IMG/VR virus record: IMGVR_UViG_3300036879_000022
Span: 20,383-84,382 of that record
From: a virus
DNA length: 64,000 bases
Direction: 5' to 3' (one strand)
Position numbers and translations under genes: made by a program. Shown here piece by piece: positions 7,446-18,278 of the stretch (position 1 is its first letter; each line of letters begins with the position of its first letter). A model generated the notes under the pieces. It had not been told where the DNA came from. It searched no databases and saw only the letters and a list, made by a program, of their open reading frames with translations.

Positions 7446-8752
7446 AAGTCATCTCCATCGTCATCGTCATCGGCGAACTCGTTGACTGCATCGTCGAGCA
7501 CGCTTGTCGCCTCGCGCGGGTCGTAGCCGGGCGCGATCGTCAATTTCCCGTTCGGCATGAAGGCCAGCTCGCCAATGGCTTTCTTGACCCGCTTACGCTG
7601 ATCCTTGCCGACGCCGAGCTTCTCCAACTGCGCGGGCGTCTTGAGTTTGGGCTCAACATAGAGGTCTTCGACCGCGAGCCCGATGTAGTCGATATCCGGG
7701 CCAAGCTCTTCAGCCGACGCGGTCAGGCGCCGTTTCGTTTCCTCGGGATCGATCAGACGCCGCTTCGACTTCCCACGTACAAGCTTCCAGTCGCCCACGG
7801 CGTTGCCATTCTCAAGCTCACGCTGGATATCGCCCTTGATGTTGTTGCACCATGCTTCGATCACCGGAAGCCATTCGGCCTTGTGTGCCAGCTCCTTGGT
7901 GCTTGTCGGCAACGGCAGTTGAGCCGGCGGCTCGTCTTCCGTGAAGTCGGCCTGCGCCTCTTCAAGCAACATGCTGTCGAACTCGGTACAGCGGCGCTTG
8001 GCCGGGCACCATAGGCACCAATCGCCTGCACGCAGCGGCGCATTCGGCGCGTCCGTCGCGTCGGCCGCTTCCTTCATCCTGATCTCGTAGAGCTTCAGCT
8101 CATCGATCGAATAGCTCTCGGATCGGATGGTCCCTTCCTTGTGCGGGGCATGCGGTTGGGAGATCGTGACCGTGACGCCTTCGCAGTCGGGATGCTCATG
8201 CGCGGCAAGAACCGCGTACTGCTTGAGCTGATCGTTATCCTTCGCCTCGACGATGATGTAGCCGTTCTTGTGATCGACGATGTCGAGCCATCCGTAGGGC
8301 TCGGCAACGCGAACGTCGATCGACCCGCCGAAGCGATGGTCTAGCCACGAGCCGTCGAGATAGACCTCGGAGTAGACCTCCGGCGCGAAGCGGGCCGCCT
8401 TGATGCGGCCAACCTCGTCAATGGTTTGCTGCACGCCTTCGACCATCTTCTCATCGGCGACGAACATGAACCATCCCGGGCGCGCGTGCTCGGGATCGAG
8501 CGCAGGCTTGCCCGGGGGATAATACTCGGTCTCTTCGTCACCGTCCGCCTTCACGAGGAAGGTTGAGCCTGCGTACTCGCTGGCGTCTTCGGCTCCGGCG
8601 ATGATCATGATCTCGACGAGCTTGTGCGCGGCCGTGCCGAGCATCGCGGCTTGGCCTGTCGTTGAGCTTTCGTCGCCGATTAGGGCGATCGAGCCCGGAC
8701 AGTTCATCCATCGGTGCGACGCGGAGGGGGATAGCTTTGCGTGGCCGGCCAT
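7442..8752 (-). CDS. DUF2800 Cas4-like PD-(D/E)xK nuclease
   Basis: HAKLSPSASHRWMNCPGS, GTAAH, GGSID, IVDHKNG, QLKQYA, GDWCLWCPAKRRC, WKLVRGKS. Confidence 0.9.
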   Translation of the reverse strand: MAGHAKLSPSASHRWMNCPGSIALIGDESSTTGQAAMLGTAAHKLVEIMIIAGAEDASEYAGSTFLVKADGDEETEYYPPGKPALDPEHARPGWFMFVADEKMVEGVQQTIDEVGRIKAARFAPEVYSEVYLDGSWLDHRFGGSIDVRVAEPYGWLDIVDHKNGYIIVEAKDNDQLKQYAVLAAHEHPDCEGVTVTISQPHAPHKEGTIRSESYSIDELKLYEIRMKEAADATDAPNAPLRAGDWCLWCPAKRRCTEFDSMLLEEAQADFTEDEPPAQLPLPTSTKELAHKAEWLPVIEAWCNNIKGDIQRELENGNAVGDWKLVRGKSKRRLIDPEETKRRLTASAEELGPDIDYIGLAVEDLYVEPKLKTPAQLEKLGVGKDQRKRVKKAIGELAFMPNGKLTIAPGYDPREATSVLDDAVNEFADDDDDGDDF

Positions 8753-8772
8753 TTCGTTTCCTTCTAAAAAGT

Positions 8773-8930
8773 TGGCGCGCTGGGGAGGACCGGACCCTCC
8801 ATCCATACTCTACGTTTCGATTTCGTCTCGGCGTCCCGGCCACTTCCGTCAGGTCTCGCCTGATGGCGTTGTGTGGCGACGACTACTGACTACCTCGTAA
8901 AGTCGCTCTGTCTGTTTGAGCTACCAGCGC
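8773..8930 (-). ncRNA. 158-nt tRNA-like RNA (Arg-like frame) with an ~81-nt structured insert
   Basis: Acceptor GCGCTGG/CCAGCGC+GCCA, D stem GCTC/GAGC, T stem GGAGG/CCTCC; stem ACTTTACG/CGTAGAGT encloses 8815-8895. Confidence 0.75.
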
Positions 8931-8940
8931 AAATTTGGTT

Positions 8941-9015
8941 TGGAGGATCAGGCGGGTGCTTCCCCCACTCATACGAGTTTTGCAGACCCGCGCGTTCGTG
9001 TTTCGCCACCGACCC
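8941..9015 (-). tRNA. tRNA-Cys(GCA) with non-canonical T-loop
   Basis: GGGTCGG/CTGATCC acceptor, U73, encoded CCA, anticodon arm CGGGT-CTGCAAA-ACTCG, T arm GTGGG-GGAAGCA-CCCGC. Confidence 0.8.
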
Positions 9016-9018
9016 TAA

Positions 9019-9378
9019 TCAGGCAACCGTATAGGGGAACGTGATCGGCTTGCGGCCGACGCGAACGTCCCACGCCATCATGTCGTCCTTGAAGACGCAA
9101 CAGTAGCGCTTGTTGACCTTGATCTGATCGTCCTCGACGCCCTCGGGATGCTCCCACTCGTCATCCTCGCCAGTCAGTGGCGTAAGCGGCATGCCACGGG
9201 CGAGCGTCTCGAAGACCGCGAGCGTCTGCTCGGCGCCTCCGCCGGAGTGACCATAGGCCGTGAAGACCTCCATCAACGACGTGACTTGCACGGCGACATC
9301 GCCGTTGTATTCGGCGTCCGCGTCGAAGAGGCCGGCGGCGCGGAGTTCGCGCTTGGCGTGTTGGCTGAGCCTACTCAT
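9019..9378 (-). CDS. Phage hypothetical protein
   Basis: GHSGGGA..PLTPLTGEDDEW..NKRY pattern recalled from phage proteins; coupled to the upstream ORF. Confidence 0.65.
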   Translation of the reverse strand: MSRLSQHAKRELRAAGLFDADAEYNGDVAVQVTSLMEVFTAYGHSGGGAEQTLAVFETLARGMPLTPLTGEDDEWEHPEGVEDDQIKVNKRYCCVFKDDMMAWDVRVGRKPITFPYTVA

Positions 9379-13276: not shown

Positions 13277-15631
13277 ATGATTTTTGATAGCTTGGCGCTC
13301 GCGCTCGCATACCTTGATCGGCATATGTATTCGCGATATCTTTTCCCGATCGCCGCAGGCAAAAAGTTTCCGCCGTGCCTCAAAGACAATCTCGACGGCA
13401 ACTGTTCGAACGACCCAAAGCAGATCATCGCGTGGGCCAAGCAGTTTCCCGGCTGCAACTGGGGCGTAGCGCACCGCAAGTCACGCTTGATGGTCGTGGA
13501 CGTTGACACCAACAAAGCCAAGGGTAAGGTCGGCGACGAAACATTCGCCTATCTCGACATGCTGTACGGCTGGCCCGAAACCGAGCGCACGGGGACGCCG
13601 TCCGGCGGCTGGCATTTGATCTACGAGGGCTGGGACGACGCAAACCATCCTGCGCACATCTTCGCGCTCGGCGAGAACGGCATCGGCAAAGATATTGATA
13701 GCCCGAACTACTCGCTGATCCCCGGGTGCCGCTTTGCTGACGGCACGAGCTACACCACGAATGACGCCGACGCCGTCGCGTGCCCGGAATGGATTTACGA
13801 CACCATCAAAAGCTCCAAGACCAAGTCGCGTATCACCGACGCGGGCGAGGTCGTTGTCGAGCTTGATCAGCAAGCGAACATCGATATCGCAATCGACTTT
13901 TTGCAGGATGATGCAGTCCCGGCCATCGAAGGGTCGGGCGGCGACTTCAATACCCTGAAGACCGCGATGTACCTCAAGGACCTCGGCATCTCGCCGACGC
14001 TGTCCGTCGATCTCTTGAACGAATACTACAATCCCCGCTGCGTGCCGCCGTGGGATCGCGATGATCTGGAGCGCAAGGTTGAGAACGCCTTCGCCTACTC
14101 CAGCCTCTCGAAGGCCGGCGGCAAAACCGCCGAGGCCGACTTCGCCGATGACGCGCCCGAGCCAATCACGCGGAAGGGCACCTACAATATCGAGACCAAG
14201 CAATACGAGTTCAAGCCCAGTGCCGATCCGGACACCGCCAAAGAGAACCGGGAAGCCGCGCGAAAGGGGGTCGCTGCTCTTACGCCAGAGCAACGAGAGC
14301 GATTTCTGAAGATGACCGAACTCATCAATGAGTGGGTATGGGTCGGTGGCCTCAAGCGGTTCATTGAAAAGGTAGACACCCGGCGTCTCTGGGACAAGGA
14401 AGCCTTCAACAGCCAGTACAACAACATTCTCGGCGAGAAGGCCACCAAAAATATCTCCGACGTTCTGCTCCGCAAAAAGAAAGGCACGATCGCCCGCTTC
14501 AAAGAGATCGCGTACAAGCCCGGGCTAGGGCAGAGGATCAGCGGCGAGGTCTTCAACGTCTATCTGCCCTCGGACGTGCTCCCGGTGGAGGGCGATGTCT
14601 CGTGGTGGGATGATCATCTCGAATACCTCTTCCCGATTGAAGAGGATCGCGTGATGGTCCTCAATTGGATGGCTTGGCTACTCCAGAACATGGCGACCAA
14701 GCCAAAGCACGCGTTGCTGATCCAAGGCGATGATCAGGGTACGGGCAAGAGTTTTCTTGTCGAGATGCTCGGCCGTATCCTCGGCCAGCGCAACGTCTCG
14801 AACATCAATCAGACCGATTTGCACGGCGACTTCAATGGATGGGCTCAGCACTCGAAGCTGCTCGTCATCGAAGAGCTGCGCGCGATCGATAAGACCGAGG
14901 TCGCCAACAAGCTGCATCCGTTGATCACGCAAGACATGATCAGCGTCAACGAAAAGAACCTGCCCCGGCGCGATGTTGAAAACTGTTTCGGTATCTTCGC
15001 GATGTCAAACCATGAGGCAGCCCTCAATCTCGACGACAAGGACCGGCGCTATCTCGTCATCAACACGAAGGCGACACCGCGTTACGGGAAGGGCTCGCCG
15101 GCCTCGGTCGCATACTATACCGACCTCTACGTCACGAAGCTCAATGACCCGGCGGCCGTCGCGGCCGTCGCATTCAAGCTCCAGAACTGGGACTACGGCG
15201 AGTACAGCGGCGCGGCAGCCGCGCCCGCTACGTCGGCCAAGACTTCGATGATCACGGCCGGTCAGAGCGATCTCGAACATTGGATGGATGAGAACCGCGA
15301 CAAATTCCCGTTGAATGGTCGGGTCGTCGCGGTCAGCGATATCATCTTGGTCTTGCCAAAACGTCTGGAGGGCCGAAGCCCGCGCCTGCATGCGTCCATC
15401 AAGGGCATCTTGATGCGGAGGTTCGGCGCCGAAGAGGTCGGACAGGCCACGCTCTCCGATGGCGAGCGTCCGCGTCTGTACGCGATCAACGGCAAAGCAG
15501 GTATCCTGAAGAACCTCTCGCCCAAGGCAATCGGCACGATCTACGAGACCGACAGGGCGAAGGCGGGCAAGGGCCAGCCTCTCGACGATGACGCGACCGA
15601 AGAGTTCGGCGAACCCAACAATATAGCTTGA
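13277..15631 (+). CDS. Bifunctional primase-polymerase fused to an SF3-type helicase
   Basis: CNWGV..VVDVD..TPSGGWHLIY (Prim-Pol); GDDQGTGKS Walker A, LLVIEE Walker B, AMSNH, DRRY. Confidence 0.92.
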   Translation: MIFDSLALALAYLDRHMYSRYLFPIAAGKKFPPCLKDNLDGNCSNDPKQIIAWAKQFPGCNWGVAHRKSRLMVVDVDTNKAKGKVGDETFAYLDMLYGWPETERTGTPSGGWHLIYEGWDDANHPAHIFALGENGIGKDIDSPNYSLIPGCRFADGTSYTTNDADAVACPEWIYDTIKSSKTKSRITDAGEVVVELDQQANIDIAIDFLQDDAVPAIEGSGGDFNTLKTAMYLKDLGISPTLSVDLLNEYYNPRCVPPWDRDDLERKVENAFAYSSLSKAGGKTAEADFADDAPEPITRKGTYNIETKQYEFKPSADPDTAKENREAARKGVAALTPEQRERFLKMTELINEWVWVGGLKRFIEKVDTRRLWDKEAFNSQYNNILGEKATKNISDVLLRKKKGTIARFKEIAYKPGLGQRISGEVFNVYLPSDVLPVEGDVSWWDDHLEYLFPIEEDRVMVLNWMAWLLQNMATKPKHALLIQGDDQGTGKSFLVEMLGRILGQRNVSNINQTDLHGDFNGWAQHSKLLVIEELRAIDKTEVANKLHPLITQDMISVNEKNLPRRDVENCFGIFAMSNHEAALNLDDKDRRYLVINTKATPRYGKGSPASVAYYTDLYVTKLNDPAAVAAVAFKLQNWDYGEYSGAAAAPATSAKTSMITAGQSDLEHWMDENRDKFPLNGRVVAVSDIILVLPKRLEGRSPRLHASIKGILMRRFGAEEVGQATLSDGERPRLYAINGKAGILKNLSPKAIGTIYETDRAKAGKGQPLDDDATEEFGEPNNIA

Positions 15632-15646
15632 AACAGGTAGCTGCCT

Positions 15647-16351
15647 ATGGTAGACGAAGTTCGCGACTGTAGCTCAATGTTAGAGCACCCCGGGTCCACT
15701 GGGGAAGATGGCGGTGCAATTCCGACCCGGTCGCTCCATATCAAACAAATCCCCGTTGCCCAAGCCCGTGCGTTCATCAAGATGTGGCACAGTCGTTTGC
15801 CCAATTGCGATGGGCCTTTCAAGATCGCGTTTGGGGCGTTCGATCAGGGCGGCTACCTCATGGCGGCTGCACTCTGGCATAACTGCTCAGCGCGAAACCT
15901 CCCGCAAGACTGGACTGAGTTGCGGCGCATGGCTGTCGCCAGCATGTACGCGCCACCGAATACGGCGTCCATCATGATCGGCCAAATGGTCAGATGGTTC
16001 AAGAGAGAAGGCAAAGCGACAACGCTCGTCTCTTATCAGGACCTCGGTGAAGGCGCCCCTAACTCAGTAGGGTTCGTCAAGCATACCGGCACGATCTACA
16101 AAGCAACTAATTGGACCCCGGTAGCGATCAGCCGTCCGCGTCTTCGAACCCGCACAGTAGCGGATCAAGATTGGGTCAAGAATGGTCGGAAGGTGTACCG
16201 CCGTAATGACAAAAACCTCACGCCGGAGGGGACGACCGACGCTATCGCATCCGCGAAAGTCCGTTGGCAGTACAGCTTGCGAGGCGAGAAGTTCACTGCC
16301 CTGACCCCGGAGCAGATCGAGGCCGCCCGAAGGATGAAGCCGACCAAATAG
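15647..16351 (+). CDS. mom: Mom-like GNAT-fold DNA adenine modification protein
   Basis: ARAFIKMWH, ELRRMAV..PPNTASIMI, LVSYQD, HTGTIYKATNW motifs typical of Mom-like proteins. Confidence 0.85.
   Translation: MVDEVRDCSSMLEHPGSTGEDGGAIPTRSLHIKQIPVAQARAFIKMWHSRLPNCDGPFKIAFGAFDQGGYLMAAALWHNCSARNLPQDWTELRRMAVASMYAPPNTASIMIGQMVRWFKREGKATTLVSYQDLGEGAPNSVGFVKHTGTIYKATNWTPVAISRPRLRTRTVADQDWVKNGRKVYRRNDKNLTPEGTTDAIASAKVRWQYSLRGEKFTALTPEQIEAARRMKPTK
15663..15738 (+). tRNA. tRNA-Gly(TCC)-like gene nested in the 5' coding region of the mom-like gene
   Basis: 76 nt: GCGACTG/CGGTCGC acceptor, U73+CCA, D stem GCTC/GAGC, anticodon arm CCCCG-GGTCCAC-TGGGG, T arm GGCGG-TGCAATT-CCG(A)CC. Confidence 0.85.
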
Positions 16352-16360
16352 TTAACATCC

Positions 16361-16415
16361 CGCCGGCGAAAAAGTCGCTCGCCGGCGAAAATAACGCTTG
16401 ACGCTCGCCGGCGAA
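16361..16415. repeat. Three palindromic CGCCGGCG boxes overlapping a TTGACG -35 element
   Basis: CGCCGGCGAA at 16361; CGCTCGCCGGCGAA at 16376 and 16402. Confidence 0.75.
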
Positions 16416-16489: not shown

Positions 16490-17488
16490 ATGACAGTACG
16501 TGTTGTTCAGGCCAAGTGGTCTAAGAAACAGATGCTCGCCCTCCCGGAGTGGGAAGGTCAGCGCGATACCGACAAGCGGGTTGCGAAGTACCTCGCGCGC
16601 AAGGATTTTGATGCGACGAACGCAACCATCAAGACTGGATGGGCGACCGTGGTCGTAGGCGGCGAAGAGAGCCGGATTAACGGCAACACTCGCGCGCACG
16701 TCATGAACCATATGCCTCTCGACGAAGCCGAGATGACGGTACGGCGCAAGGACTTCGCCAAGCACTTCCCCGAAGAAGTGCTCGGCGACAAGTACATTTG
16801 CTCAACGAAGGAGGAAGCTCAGGAAATGTATAACAGCATTGACAACACTTCTTCGAGCAAGGGCGCAGCGGACAAGCTGACTTCTGCATTCAAGGCTTGC
16901 GGAGTTGGCGTGCGGTCGAAGATGTACAGGTCAGGGCGCGGTACGTCCGGTCTTGCTCTCGCATGGCGGGCGTTACTCGGTCAGGCTTCCAATTCCGCCT
17001 GTTGGCGGACCGAGACCATGGTCACTGAGTTCATTCATGAGCTTCGGCTTTTGGATAAGCTCATGTCCGACAATAACGTTCCGGCCAATAGCCGGGTCGT
17101 ATCCTATCCCGGCTTTCAGATGGCCGTGCTGCTCACGCTCTACCGCGCTCGTTTAACCCCGCACAAGCGGGGCGATGGCGAGAGCGTTGATGAGGTCTAC
17201 AAGTTCTGGGACACCGTCATCAAGTACGAAGGGGAGATTATCGTCGCCGGGAGCGATCTCGTGTCGAAGTCCCCCGTGATCAAGATGTGGACGATGGTCA
17301 ACGACGATGTTCTTGCTGCGTCCGACGACAAGACACAGTCGCGGGAGACGTGGTATGAGGTCGGAGCCAAGGCGCTCAGCCTCTTCTTGCGCCGCCGTGA
17401 GGCGTCAGTTGACAGGCCGTCCCATAAGAAGGTGGTTATCGAAACCTTCTTCCCCTGTCTCGTGGAAGCTCAGGCCGAAGCGGCCTGA
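16490..17488 (+). CDS. Hypothetical protein, possibly ParB/Srx-like N-terminus
   Basis: 332-aa ORF; QRDT..INGNTR loosely resembles the ParB DGxxR motif; hairpin at 17537-17564 follows. Confidence 0.7.
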   Translation: MTVRVVQAKWSKKQMLALPEWEGQRDTDKRVAKYLARKDFDATNATIKTGWATVVVGGEESRINGNTRAHVMNHMPLDEAEMTVRRKDFAKHFPEEVLGDKYICSTKEEAQEMYNSIDNTSSSKGAADKLTSAFKACGVGVRSKMYRSGRGTSGLALAWRALLGQASNSACWRTETMVTEFIHELRLLDKLMSDNNVPANSRVVSYPGFQMAVLLTLYRARLTPHKRGDGESVDEVYKFWDTVIKYEGEIIVAGSDLVSKSPVIKMWTMVNDDVLAASDDKTQSRETWYEVGAKALSLFLRRREASVDRPSHKKVVIETFFPCLVEAQAEAA

Positions 17489-17854: not shown

Positions 17855-18248
17855 GCGATCGATACAACGGACGAGGCTTTGGCCCTCACGTACCAAGGTG
17901 CGCAAAGAGGGATGGGTAGCGAGCGGTTGACCAATCGAGCGTGATGGTTCTGAATGTTGAGACGGACTGCGGTCAGACCCGGGGGCAGTACCCGGCGCCT
18001 CCACCACGAGCAGCGCGATGAGGCATGGATGCCTTGCACTAAATGTGCGTACACCCCTCGGGGAACACGCGCTGCTTCTGATGGGGGCGACACAGGATCG
18101 ATGGACGCTCGGAAAGTCTCGAAAGTGAACTCGGCGTGATCTGCCGCGATCGGATCAAACACCTAAATGACAACGACAACTTTGTCATGGATCAGCGCCT
18201 CGCGGCGTAACGTTCCGGGGTTGGTCGCCTAGCAACAGAAAGACCCCA
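17855..18248 (+). ncRNA. ssrA: Permuted two-piece tmRNA, alphaproteobacterial type; tag (A)DNDNFVMDQRLAA
   Basis: Acceptor piece ends GGGGCAGTACCCGGCGCCTCCACCA at 18006; hairpin intervening segment; coding piece starts GGGGGCGA at 18083 (G3-U70 pair); tag frame 18169-18210. Outer ends approximate. Confidence 0.93.
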
Positions 18249-18278
18249 GACGCCCTAGCCGCAAGGCTGGGGCGTTTT
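18249..18278 (+). terminator. Intrinsic terminator after tmRNA
   Basis: ACGCCCTAGCC-GCAA-GGCTGGGGCGT then TTT. Confidence 0.8.

What the first reader, a model, noticed from the sequence alone, without database searches (positions are those of the whole stretch)
15647..16351. A complete tRNA-Gly is nested in the reading frame of a Mom-like DNA-modifying enzyme
Seen: 15663-15738 is a 76-nt cloverleaf with Gly identity elements (G1-C72, C2-G71, G3-C70, TCC anticodon, U73, CCA) but G33 instead of U33, no D-loop GG and a bulged T stem. It is read in frame as RDCSSMLEHPGSTGEDGGAIPTRSLH. The Mom-like domain starts right after the CCA with no start codon before its first helix, so translation appears to begin upstream of or inside the tRNA. 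Established: Mu Mom is a GNAT-fold enzyme making N6-carbamoylmethyladenine, a glycinamide adduct, and staphylococcal Fem transferases use non-proteinogenic tRNA-Gly. From memory and unverified, Mom has been reported to use Gly-tRNA-Gly as donor. Inference: one transcript yields either the enzyme or its dedicated ribosome-avoiding donor tRNA, because excising the tRNA removes the mRNA start. This would couple co-substrate supply to limiting a toxic enzyme, directly downstream of the primase.
Basis: partly seen in the sequence, partly recalled or inferred. Interest (0 to 1): 0.92.

Follow-up and report, generated by a model that had tools for sequence, protein, structure and literature searches.

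The report
Glycine-tRNA look-alike inside Mom gene
Codons 6-31 of this peat phage's Mom gene, whose enzyme family takes glycine from charged glycine-tRNA to disguise DNA, also spell a conserved but deformed glycine-tRNA look-alike that is most likely the enzyme's private glycine carrier, though nobody has tested this.

Summary
ARAGORN calls one tRNA in the 64-kb window, tRNA-Gly(tcc) at 15663-15738. It lies in frame inside the 234-codon Mom-family ORF 15647-16351. The Pfam Mom match begins at the tRNA's 3' end.

It is not chance. A covariance model finds the same 76-nt element at the 5' end of the Mom gene in 67 of 80 related viral loci. 97.4% of cells are paired, and 16 of 21 pairs show compensatory changes.

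The GlyRS determinants are kept. A bulge inside the T stem is present in all 53 distinct copies. The anticodon loop is mostly abnormal: 8 nt in 39 copies, and G33 here.

In 57 of 58 distinct loci the ORF is open through the element, and 53 have a start codon 1-18 nt upstream of it. Free-standing copies lie just downstream of two distant Mom genes.

Mom is known to use Gly-tRNAGly (Silva 2026). The best reading is a dedicated, non-decoding glycine carrier co-encoded with its enzyme. Excision, charging and use are untested.

An embedded tRNA-Gly-like locus in mom homologues was printed in 2011, with no function given. This scan has reported the same thing on at least 12 other genomes.

The parts
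13277..15631 (+). Upstream primase-polymerase gene (784 aa). Its stop codon lies 15 nt before the Mom start.
   Evidence: ORF. Pfam Prim-Pol PF09250 and DUF5906 PF19263. PHROG DNA primase families.
15647..15649 (+). Most likely start codon (ATG) of the Mom-like gene, 15 nt upstream of tRNA position 1.
   Evidence: It is the first start codon after the in-frame stop (ORF opens at -21, ATG at -15). A start at -18..-1 is present in 53 of 58 distinct related loci. The closest relative, L090, has no ATG in its D loop and starts upstream.
15647..16351 (+). Mom-family GNAT gene (234 codons), with the tRNA-like element in codons 6-31.
   Evidence: Pfam PF25680 at 42.9 bits. phrog_1384. Profile match to Mu Mom structure 8bv8.
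15663..15738 (+). 76-nt tRNA-Gly-like element. Acceptor 15663-15669 / 15728-15734. D arm 15672-15686. Anticodon arm 15688-15704. T arm 15710-15727. U73 at 15735. CCA at 15736-15738.
   Evidence: ARAGORN. Rfam 27.3 bits. Model R1 75.4 bits, though this copy was in the seed. Cloverleaf minimum-energy fold.
15677..15679 (+). In-frame ATG inside the D loop. This alternative start was used by the source's gene caller (224-aa P0001).
   Evidence: It is not conserved in L090. It is the only available start in L064.
15693..15699 (+). Anticodon loop GGTCCAC: G32, G33 (no U33), UCC at 15695-15697, A37, C38. G32 and C38 can pair.
   Evidence: Sequence. The fold pairs 32 with 38. The whole anticodon arm is identical in L090.
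15725..15725 (+). Bulged A between T-stem pairs 51-63 and 50-64.
   Evidence: Present in 53 of 53 distinct family rows (A in 51, G in 2). The flanking pairs covary.
15734..16144 (+). Mom domain as matched by Pfam (residues 30-166). H48, R94, S108, D132 and Y151 align with Mu Mom H58, R111, S124, D149 and Y159.
   Evidence: The Mu numbering was inferred from the 8bv8 chain index plus 9.

Best explanation
The 76 nt at 15663-15738 are a dedicated, non-decoding tRNA-Gly-like RNA. It belongs to the Mom enzyme and is encoded inside the first 31 codons of that enzyme's own gene.

Shown here:
- It is an RNA under structural selection.
- It keeps the determinants that bacterial GlyRS reads: G1:C72, C2:G71, C35, C36 and U73, plus an encoded CCA.
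- It carries a family-wide bulge inside the three T-stem pairs that set EF-Tu affinity.
- It has an abnormal anticodon loop: G33 with a pairable G32:C38 here, and an 8-nt loop in most relatives.
- It is physically tied to Mom genes in several arrangements.
- The Mom ORF starts just upstream and is read through it.

Inferred:
- Some transcripts are cut by RNase P and 3'-end enzymes, releasing the RNA.
- Host GlyRS charges it.
- Because EF-Tu and the ribosome handle it poorly, the Gly-RNA stays available to Mom.
- Mom transfers the glycine to N6 of adenine in phage DNA, as shown for Mu Mom with host tRNAGly.
- Uncut transcripts are translated from ATG 15647 into Mom carrying a passenger N-terminal leader.
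- Any one transcript therefore yields either the enzyme or the carrier.
For: Structure under selection:
- The element is present at the Mom 5' end in the window and in 67 of 80 related viral loci, at 62-97 bits. Ordinary tRNAs score 26-56 bits with the same model.
- 97.4% of cells are paired, 16 of 21 pairs carry double changes, and 0 of 500 shuffles reach this. Slid controls give 35-52% paired.
- The closest relative, L090 (61% amino-acid identity), has an identical anticodon arm and a compensatory change from A4-U69 to G4-C69.
- Nucleotide entropy in the element (0.62/0.81/1.03 by codon position) is below that of the Mom domain (1.13/0.93/1.68).

Glycine identity:
- Pairs 1-72, 2-71 and 3-70 are near-invariant.
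- 'CC' occurs in 53 of 53 anticodon loops and TCC in 52 of 53.
- The 3' end is U73 plus CCA in 42 of 53.
- These are the published GlyRS determinants (PMC10464925, abstract and passages).

Non-decoding features:
- The T-stem bulge is present in 53 of 53. It lies among pairs 49-65, 50-64 and 51-63, which set EF-Tu affinity (PMC7826273, discussion passages).
- The anticodon loop is 8 nt in 39 of 53, and U33 is missing in the window and in L013.
- D-loop GG and the T-loop TTC motif are kept or lost together: 31 keep both, 20 lose both, and 2 are mixed.
- The Rfam score is 27.3 bits, against 49-63 bits for this phage's nine ordinary tRNAs, which lie in an array elsewhere.

Link to Mom regardless of arrangement:
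- It is embedded in one frame in 68 of 68 loci.
- It is embedded in a different frame in L153 and L154, and carries an in-frame stop in L142.
- It is free-standing just after the Mom ORF in L117 and L124.

Chemistry:
- Mu Mom transfers glycine from Gly-tRNAGly and probably reads the acceptor end (PMC13219725).
- The window's Mom keeps the residues that align with Mu H58, R111, S124, D149 and Y159.
Against: - Nothing here shows excision, charging, use by Mom or avoidance of EF-Tu.
- Mu Mom accepts all three E. coli isoacceptors, so a private tRNA is not needed for the chemistry.
- 13 of 80 relatives lack the element: 10 are decayed and 3 have none. Three cultured phages with distant Mom genes have none within 1.5 kb.
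- The GlyRS docking model has the beta subunit touching the T stem. The bulge could therefore also hurt charging.
- The ORF is kept open through the element, with 0 stops in 51 distinct copies against 46 and 42 in the other two frames. Third codon positions vary most (331 of 20000 permutations). The peptide or the intact mRNA may therefore matter too.
- 12 of 53 copies have a normal-looking 7-nt loop with U33.
- This phage's tRNA array has no tRNA-Gly, which leaves room for a decoding role.
Confidence: 0.6

Rival explanations
1. A cis-acting tRNA mimic only. The cloverleaf stays in the mRNA and controls translation of mom. For example, it may bind Mom or GlyRS, or simply fold over the start region, as the thrS operator mimics tRNAThr. 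It is never released or charged.
For: - The start codon lies 1-18 nt upstream in 53 of 58 distinct loci. By inference, the folded acceptor and D arms sit inside the footprint of an initiating ribosome.
- The frame is kept open in 57 of 58.
- Mom is thought to read the acceptor end of tRNAGly, so it could bind its own message.
Against: - Free-standing copies lie downstream of the Mom ORF in L117 and L124.
- The element is embedded in another frame in L153 and L154, and sits upstream with an in-frame stop in L142.
- C35 and C36, which GlyRS reads but Mom does not need, are kept in 53 of 53 copies.
- The 3' ends vary (TTCA, TTCG, TTTC, TCGA) as in real tRNA genes that rely on CCA addition.
Confidence: 0.15
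2. An ordinary phage tRNA-Gly(UCC) used in translation. It merely overlaps the start of mom because the genome is compact.
For: - ARAGORN calls it tRNA-Gly(tcc).
- The GlyRS identity set is complete.
- The phage's nine-tRNA array has no tRNA-Gly.
- 12 of 53 family members have a 7-nt loop with U33.
Against: - G33, and a pairable G32:C38, in this copy and in L090.
- The T-stem bulge is present in 53 of 53 copies, and the loop is 8 nt in 39 of 53.
- The Rfam score is below the gathering cut-off, while the phage's own tRNAs score 49-63 bits.
- The element is strictly linked to Mom genes across contigs binned with many phyla.
- It sits on the opposite strand, about 28 kb from the tRNA array.
Confidence: 0.07
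3. Another trans-acting role for a tRNA-shaped RNA. For example, it could be a decoy or substitute against host tRNA-targeting defences, or a frameshift-suppressor tRNA (8-nt anticodon loop). The link to Mom would be incidental.
For: - 8-nt anticodon loops are the hallmark of frameshift-suppressor tRNAs. This point is recalled, not checked here.
- Phages do carry tRNAs for reasons other than codon use. This is general knowledge.
Against: - The link to Mom holds in every arrangement seen.
- The window's own copy has a 7-nt loop.
- No other partner gene recurs. I did not survey neighbouring genes systematically.
Confidence: 0.05
4. A functionless relic of a captured tRNA gene that now serves only as coding sequence.
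For: In 10 of 80 relatives the structure has decayed while the N-terminal extension is still an open frame.
Against: - Compensatory changes occur in 16 of 21 pairs.
- The element is more conserved than the enzyme's own first and second codon positions.
- It lies on both deep branches of the Mom tree.
Confidence: 0.02

Closest known systems
76-bp tRNA-Gly-like 'pseudo-tRNA' embedded in the first 150 bp of the mom homologue of Dehalococcoides ssrA genomic islands (McMurdie et al. 2011, BMC Genomics, PMC3146451; passages read)
   Same: - A 76-nt tRNA-Gly-like cloverleaf sits inside the 5' coding part of a Mom homologue and is conserved in 16 islands.
- The anticodon is given as 'DCC'.
- L153, from a Chloroflexi-labelled MAG, fits that description and keeps the bulged T arm.
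   Different: - That paper gave no function. Mom was then thought to act by methylation.
- In L153 and L154 the RNA is read in a different frame and the Mom clade is different.
- I did not examine a Dehalococcoides genome itself.
- The paper's Figure S1 is a supplement, which I could not open.
Phage Mu Mom with host Gly-tRNAGly (Silva et al. 2026, Nat Commun, PMC13219725; preprint 10.1101/2023.03.24.534169)
   Same: - Same Pfam family.
- The residues that align with Mu H58, R111, S124, D149 and Y159 are conserved.
- Glycine from charged tRNAGly is the established donor.
   Different: - Mu has no tRNA of its own and uses any host isoacceptor.
- Term searches of both texts found no mention of a tRNA encoded with mom homologues. 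Their supplements were not seen.
- Mu R151 has no aligned equivalent here.
Non-proteogenic tRNAGly isoacceptors of Staphylococcus aureus, glycine donors for FemXAB/FmhB (Rietmeyer et al. 2020/21, NAR, PMC7826273; abstract and passages)
   Same: - It works the same way: a tRNAGly charged by the normal GlyRS but diverted from EF-Tu to a GNAT-fold transferase.
- The changes are in the T stem and in the D and T loops.
   Different: - It is not a member of that lineage, which is restricted to staphylococci.
- There, EF-Tu is avoided through weak A-U pairs at 49-65, 50-64 and 51-63. Here the pairs are G-C with a bulged A.
- The acceptor molecule here is DNA, not peptidoglycan precursor.
- The gene here is viral and lies inside the enzyme's ORF.
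tRNA-mimic translational operators, for example thrS mRNA bound by ThrRS (recalled, not checked here)
   Same: A tRNA-shaped fold lies next to a start codon in the mRNA of a protein that binds that tRNA.
   Different: - Those operators mimic only the anticodon arm.
- They have no acceptor stem, CCA or full cloverleaf.
- They never occur as free-standing copies.

Membership tests
Mom family (PF25680), tRNA-dependent DNA glycyltransferase | Pfam PF25680 match above the gathering score | tested here: met
   42.9 bits against a cut-off of 27.1, E 5.6e-11, residues 30-166. Also phrog_1384 at 8.5e-17.
Mom family (PF25680), tRNA-dependent DNA glycyltransferase | Residues shown essential or important in Mu Mom: H58, R111, S124, D149, R151, Y159 | tested here: inconclusive
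   H48, R94, S108, D132 and Y151 align with H58, R111, S124, D149 and Y159, and are invariant in A1. Mu R151 aligns with a non-conserved column (G134 here). The match to 8bv8 is weak (23 bits, E 4e-4).
Mom family (PF25680), tRNA-dependent DNA glycyltransferase | HTH-like insertion needed for activity, and N6-adenine glycylation of dsDNA | not testable with these tools
Enzyme activity needs bench work.
Bacterial tRNA-Gly (GlyRS substrate) | Determinants G1:C72, C2:G71, C35, C36 and U73 (PMC10464925) | tested here: met
   All are present in the window. They are near-invariant in the family. Actual charging was not tested.
Bacterial tRNA-Gly (canonical decoding tRNA) | Rfam tRNA score at or above the gathering score, U33, D-loop G18G19 with T-loop T54-Psi55-C56, and a regular 5-bp T stem | tested here: not met
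   27.3 bits, below 29. G33, D loop AATGTTA and T loop TGCAATT. Bulged A15725.
   75.4 bits with R1, though this copy was a seed member. The relative L090, not in the seed, scores 69.6 bits. The bulge is present in 53 of 53 copies. The element is embedded in frame, as in 68 of 68.
Staphylococcal non-proteogenic tRNAGly | Weak T-stem pairs A49-U65, U50-A64 and A51-U63, in a lineage restricted to staphylococci | tested here: not met
   The T stem here is G-C rich with a bulge. It resembles that family in how it works, not by descent.

The most novel reading that the evidence does not exclude
One stretch of 76 nt has two readers. The ribosome reads it as the N-terminal leader of Mom. RNase P and GlyRS read it as a private glycine carrier that evades EF-Tu. 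Each mom transcript is thus committed either to enzyme or to co-substrate. Folding of the tRNA over the initiation region, and cleavage 15 nt after the start codon, would set the ratio. This would be a self-contained enzyme-plus-donor cassette, able to move between phages of many bacterial phyla.
Probability: 0.35. Interest if true: 0.92.

Novelty: new variant of a known kind. Interest (0 to 1): 0.8.

Why it matters
If the reading is right, phages carry a tRNA whose job is DNA chemistry, not translation. That would be a viral counterpart of the staphylococcal cell-wall tRNAGly. It is packed inside the gene of the enzyme that spends it.

It would matter in five ways:
- It would explain a 'pseudo-tRNA' that has sat unexplained in print since 2011.
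- It would give the newly established tRNA-dependent Mom reaction a natural dedicated co-substrate to test.
- It would offer a rare, deeply conserved case of RNA-gene and protein-gene dual coding in one frame.
- It would provide a natural experiment on which tRNA features GlyRS, EF-Tu, RNase P and Mom each need.
- Practically, gene callers mis-start these mom genes (the source called 224 aa from the D-loop ATG), and tRNA finders miss most copies: ARAGORN called 25 of the 67 that the model found.

Tried and rejected
- RNA evidence: the look-up of sequencing runs listed 20 peat or permafrost runs kept as contigs. No RNA holder was listed. I did not use read laying, because contigs of DNA runs cannot show RNA ends.
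I can say nothing about whether the leader is disordered.
- Shine-Dalgarno enrichment upstream of the conserved start: 21 of 53 against 18.4 in shuffles, not significant. I dropped it as evidence.
- Fused forms in which the element would lie between two domains: the 'longer' searches gave none with the single protein. With A1 they gave only P0042, a 522-aa nuclease-Mom fusion with no trace of the element. The fusions reported by earlier notes of this scan remain unverified by me.
- Cultured phages:
  - No blastn match to the window stretch or to a typical element.
  - tblastn found 7 records, all below 60% identity.
  - Three of them, L156-L158, have no R1 match with filters off.
- Model R1 is not specific below about 57 bits, because ordinary tRNAs reach 56 bits. 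I therefore judged hits at 40-57 bits (L117, L124, L142, L145, L153, L154) by eye and by folding. I counted L094, L101 and L133 as ordinary tRNAs or chance.
- Integration-site relic (phage att site in a tRNA): rejected. The whole cloverleaf is present, always inside or beside mom, with covariation.
- A rare ATC start right after the CCA (15740) cannot be excluded in this window. It has no counterpart in L090.
- Another first-reader note claimed deviant tRNAs at 8773-9015. Rfam found nothing at E up to 1 in 8600-9150, and ARAGORN called none there. I did not pursue it.
- A recount gives 25 of 80.
- A1 used 29 of the 40 non-self hits (P0002-P0030).
- In one search, 2 of the 70 aligned rows were not family members (a tRNA-Met in L037 and a 15.8-bit hit in the window). 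I removed them only.
Full report
WHAT IS THERE.

The window is part of an 84,382-base IMG/VR virus record. DNA near-identical to it occurs in peat and permafrost metagenome assemblies.

ARAGORN finds one tRNA in the whole window, tRNA-Gly(tcc) at 15663-15738 on the + strand. The Rfam tRNA model matches the same place at 27.3 bits. This is just below its gathering score of 29, with E 0.003 in the 1.1 kb searched. The minimum-energy fold of the 76 nt is a cloverleaf: -31.6 kcal/mol, 83% of the ensemble, z -2.49.

The sequence shows these features:
- G1-C72, C2-G71 and G3-C70, U73, and an encoded CCA.
- Anticodon loop GGTCCAC, that is G32, G33, UCC, A37 and C38.
- A D loop without GG.
- T loop TGCAATT.
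- A T stem GGCGG/CCG-A-CC with a bulged A at 15725.

The element lies wholly inside ORF 15647-16351 (234 codons), as codons 6-31. The ORF is a Mom-family GNAT: Pfam PF25680 at 42.9 bits against a cut-off of 27.1, and phrog_1384. The Pfam match starts at residue 30, which is profile position 2. The enzyme domain therefore begins at the tRNA's 3' end.

The next in-frame ATG/GTG/TTG after the CCA is M46 at 15782, two residues before the invariant H48. The gene follows a Prim-Pol/DUF5906 primase after a 15-nt gap.

IT IS A FAMILY FEATURE, NOT AN ACCIDENT.

In an alignment of the window's protein with 29 database relatives, about half the rows carry an N-terminal extension. By my reading that is 14 of 30, including the five closest relatives at 47-62% identity. 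The conserved letters of that extension are the in-frame translation of a tRNA D arm, anticodon arm and T arm.

I fetched 80 related viral loci, the best 80 of 143 relatives found. ARAGORN called a tRNA at the 5' end of the Mom match in 25 of the 80. Of these, 9 were called tRNA-Gly, 1 was called tRNA-Trp, and 15 were called 'tRNA-???' with a two-letter anticodon.

A covariance model was built from 13 of these copies with a bulged T stem. It found a full-length 76-77-nt match at that place in the window and in 67 of 80 loci, at 61.9-96.6 bits. As a control, the same model gives 26-41.5 bits to this phage's own ordinary tRNAs and up to 56 bits to the tRNAs of a bacterial MAG.

On the alignment of matches:
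- 97.4% of cells form standard pairs.
- 16 of 21 pairs show changes on both sides.
- None of 500 shuffles reaches the observed values.
- Sliding the partners gives 35-52% paired.
- Caveats: the alignment was fitted to the model, and 2 of its 70 rows were not family members.

The closest relative with DNA in hand is L090, at 61% protein identity and not in the seed. Its anticodon arm is identical, including G32 and G33. It has a compensatory change from A4-U69 to G4-C69. Its flanks are much more diverged.

WHAT IS CONSERVED AND WHAT IS DEFORMED.

These counts are over the 53 distinct aligned copies:
- The T-stem bulge is in all 53 (A in 51, G in 2), and the pairs on both sides of it covary.
- The anticodon loop always contains CC, and contains TCC in 52.
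- The 3' end is U73 plus CCA in 42. It is TTCA, ACCA, TTCG, TTTC or TCGA in the other 11.
- The anticodon loop is 8 nt in 39 (equally, a 6-bp stem with a 6-nt loop), 7 nt with U33 in 12, and 7 nt without U33 in 2 (the window and L013).
- D-loop GG and a TTC-type T loop go together: 31 copies have both, 20 have neither (the window among them), and only 2 are mixed. The elbow contact is therefore kept or given up as a unit.

The conserved set G1:C72, C2:G71, C35, C36 and U73 is exactly the determinant set of bacterial GlyRS (PMC10464925, abstract and passages). The bulge sits among pairs 49-65, 50-64 and 51-63. Those pairs almost alone set the affinity of EF-Tu for a tRNA body, and they are weakened in the staphylococcal cell-wall tRNAGly (PMC7826273).

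This phage also has nine ordinary tRNAs: Asn, Ile, Ala, Met, Phe, Thr, Gln, Trp and Pro. They score 49-63 bits in Rfam and lie in one array about 28 kb away on the other strand. None is a tRNA-Gly.

IS IT TRANSLATED?

In all 68 copies, the codon phase of the long downstream ORF (155 codons or more) relative to the element is the same. Among 58 distinct loci:
- The frame is open through the element in 57.
- A start codon lies 1-18 nt upstream of position 1 in 53 (ATG in 49).
- 15 have no ATG/GTG/TTG in the 45 nt after the CCA.

L014 has only one candidate start before the ELRRMA motif, an ATG at -12. L064 starts at an ATG in its D loop. None of 51 distinct 76-nt copies has a stop in the Mom frame, against 46 and 42 of 51 in the other two frames.

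The 13 loci without the element have no match even with filters off. Ten of them keep an N-terminal extension of similar length, with peptide remnants of the translated tRNA. Three have short N-termini (the sorting is my own reading).

On a FastTree of 71 distinct Mom domains, the element lies on both deep branches. At least four changes of state are needed. The window's nearest viral relatives, L002-L004, are the three that lack it.

I conclude that the gene starts upstream of the element, at ATG 15647 in this window. L090 lacks the D-loop ATG that the source's gene caller used for the 224-aa P0001. A Shine-Dalgarno test was not significant.

RNA OR PEPTIDE?

The constraint is mainly on the RNA.
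- The element is more conserved, with entropy 0.62/0.81/1.03 by codon position, than the enzyme domain at 1.13/0.93/1.68.
- Compensatory stem changes alter the peptide freely.
- In L153 and L154, from another Mom clade in MAGs labelled Chloroflexi and Armatimonadota, the same kind of bulged element is embedded but read in a different frame. In L142 it carries an in-frame stop, and the ORF starts downstream of that stop.

A weak excess of third-position variation (331 of 20000 permutations) leaves room for some selection on the peptide as well.

LINK TO MOM IN TRANS.

Two distant, AT-rich Mom loci carry a bulged tRNA-Gly-like cloverleaf as a free-standing gene right after the Mom ORF.
- In L117 the Mom ORF is 335-904, the element is 910-983 and the next ORF starts at 995.
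- In L124 the Mom ORF is 335-952, the element is 938-1012 and the next ORF starts at 1029.
- The anticodon-loop motifs are TCC and ACC. Both loci fold as bulged cloverleaves.
- These are only two loci, at R1 scores of 50 and 42 bits that ordinary tRNAs can also reach. This rests on my inspection of them.

Among 22 loci from species-representative genomes, 14 have the element at 63 bits or more. Four more, at 40-57 bits, keep the bulged T arm by eye. All 22 are MAG contigs. Their labels include Planctomycetota, Bacteroidota, Verrucomicrobiota, Actinomycetota, Pseudomonadota, Chloroflexi, Armatimonadota and a candidate-phylum bacterium.

WHAT IT MOST LIKELY DOES.

Silva et al. (Nat Commun 2026, PMC13219725; abstract and sections 10, 13 in part and 14 read) showed four things:
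- Mu Mom transfers glycine from Gly-tRNAGly to N6 of adenine in dsDNA.
- All three E. coli isoacceptors work.
- Gly-tRNAAla does not work.
- Recognition probably centres on the acceptor end.

The window's enzyme keeps the residues that align with Mu H58, R111, S124, D149 and Y159, though not R151. Put together, the most economical reading is a dedicated glycine carrier. It would be charged by host GlyRS. The T-stem bulge and abnormal anticodon loop would keep it away from EF-Tu and the ribosome. Mom would use it.

Because the start codon lies 15 nt upstream, RNase P cleavage would decapitate the message. Each transcript would then give either carrier or enzyme. All these steps after the sequence facts are inference. 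I put the carrier reading at 0.6.

The main rival, at 0.15, is a cis-acting mimic that is never released. The free-standing copies, the frame change and the conserved GlyRS anticodon determinants speak against it. The two roles could also coexist.

Several facts argue that the element is an accessory rather than a necessity:
- It has been lost repeatedly.
- It is absent from Mu and from three cultured phages.
- Mu Mom needs no private tRNA.

Mu Mom tolerates loss of its first 10 residues, and its residues 11-19 are unstructured.

WHAT IS KNOWN.

McMurdie et al. 2011 (PMC3146451, passages) reported a conserved 76-bp tRNA-Gly-like 'pseudo-tRNA' embedded in the first 150 bp of the mom homologue. 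They found it in 16 Dehalococcoides ssrA islands and one marine fosmid, and proposed no function.

My full-text searches were:
- 'Mom' + 'glycyl-tRNA' + 'bacteriophage Mu'.
- 'momylation'.
- 'Mom-like' + 'tRNA'.
- 'Mom' / 'tRNA-like' / 'glycyl' / 'DNA hypermodification'.

Term look-ups in both Silva texts and these searches found no paper that joins the two facts. Supplements were closed and may hold more.

This scan has already reported the same arrangement on at least 12 other genomes, and once more on this same stretch. Those notes led me to the 2011 paper, which I then read myself.

VERDICT.

- It is a new variant of a known kind: a non-ribosomal tRNAGly donor, here viral, serving DNA modification, and nested in frame in its enzyme's gene.
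- Interest is 0.8.

Noticed in passing
window 17886-18250 (+): A full-length alphaproteobacterial-type (two-piece, permuted) tmRNA gene: Rfam alpha_tmRNA at 120.7 bits against a cut-off of 50. It lies about 1.5 kb downstream of the Mom gene. It hints at an alphaproteobacterial host. It also echoes the ssrA-linked islands in which the embedded tRNA was first described.
   Followed up: partly
G000:C1:7377-8220 (- strand; outside the window, about 12 kb before its start): An array of nine canonical tRNAs (Asn, Ile, Ala, Met, Phe, Thr, Gln, Trp, Pro; 49-63 bits in Rfam). None is a tRNA-Gly.
   Followed up: partly
window 16361-16415 (+): Three exact copies of a 10-nt motif (CGCCGGCGAA) within 55 nt, between the Mom stop and the next gene at 16490. 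They are the only three copies in the window. The window-wide count is not significant on its own (0.98 expected; 9 of 100 shuffles reach 3). The clustering suggests an operator or promoter region.
   Followed up: partly
L066, L070, L072, L077, L020, L007, L011, L012, L015, L016 (5' ends of their Mom ORFs): The element has decayed as an RNA, with no model match even with filters off. The N-terminal extension is still an open frame, and it keeps peptide remnants of the translated tRNA.
   Followed up: partly
L153:1443-1519 and L154:354-430: In a different Mom clade (MAGs labelled Chloroflexi and Armatimonadota) a bulged tRNA-Gly-like element is embedded near the 5' end but is read in another frame. 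L153 has a GCC-type anticodon motif, which fits the published 'DCC'.
   Followed up: partly
L117:910-983 and L124:938-1012: Free-standing bulged tRNA-Gly-like genes lie immediately downstream of distant, AT-rich Mom genes. L124 has an ACC anticodon.
   Followed up: partly
Alignment A3 (53 distinct copies): D-loop GG and the T-loop TTC motif are kept or lost together (31 keep both, 20 lose both, 2 mixed). All 13 copies with G at T-loop position 55 lack GG. This is a tertiary-contact covariation.
   Followed up: yes
P0042 (522 aa, metagenome protein): A fusion of a long N-terminal region with a C-terminal Mom domain, with no trace of the tRNA-coded peptide. The jumbo-phage paper (PMC7824862, passage) describes restriction-endonuclease-fold fusions to Mom.
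   Followed up: no
window 8600-9150: Another first-reader note describes deviant tRNA-like RNAs here. Rfam finds nothing at E up to 1, and ARAGORN calls nothing.
   Followed up: partly
window 16040-16081 (residues 133-146 of the Mom ORF): A roughly 10-residue insertion between the SYQD motif and the HTGTIY motif, relative to most relatives. It is shared only with P0002.
   Followed up: no
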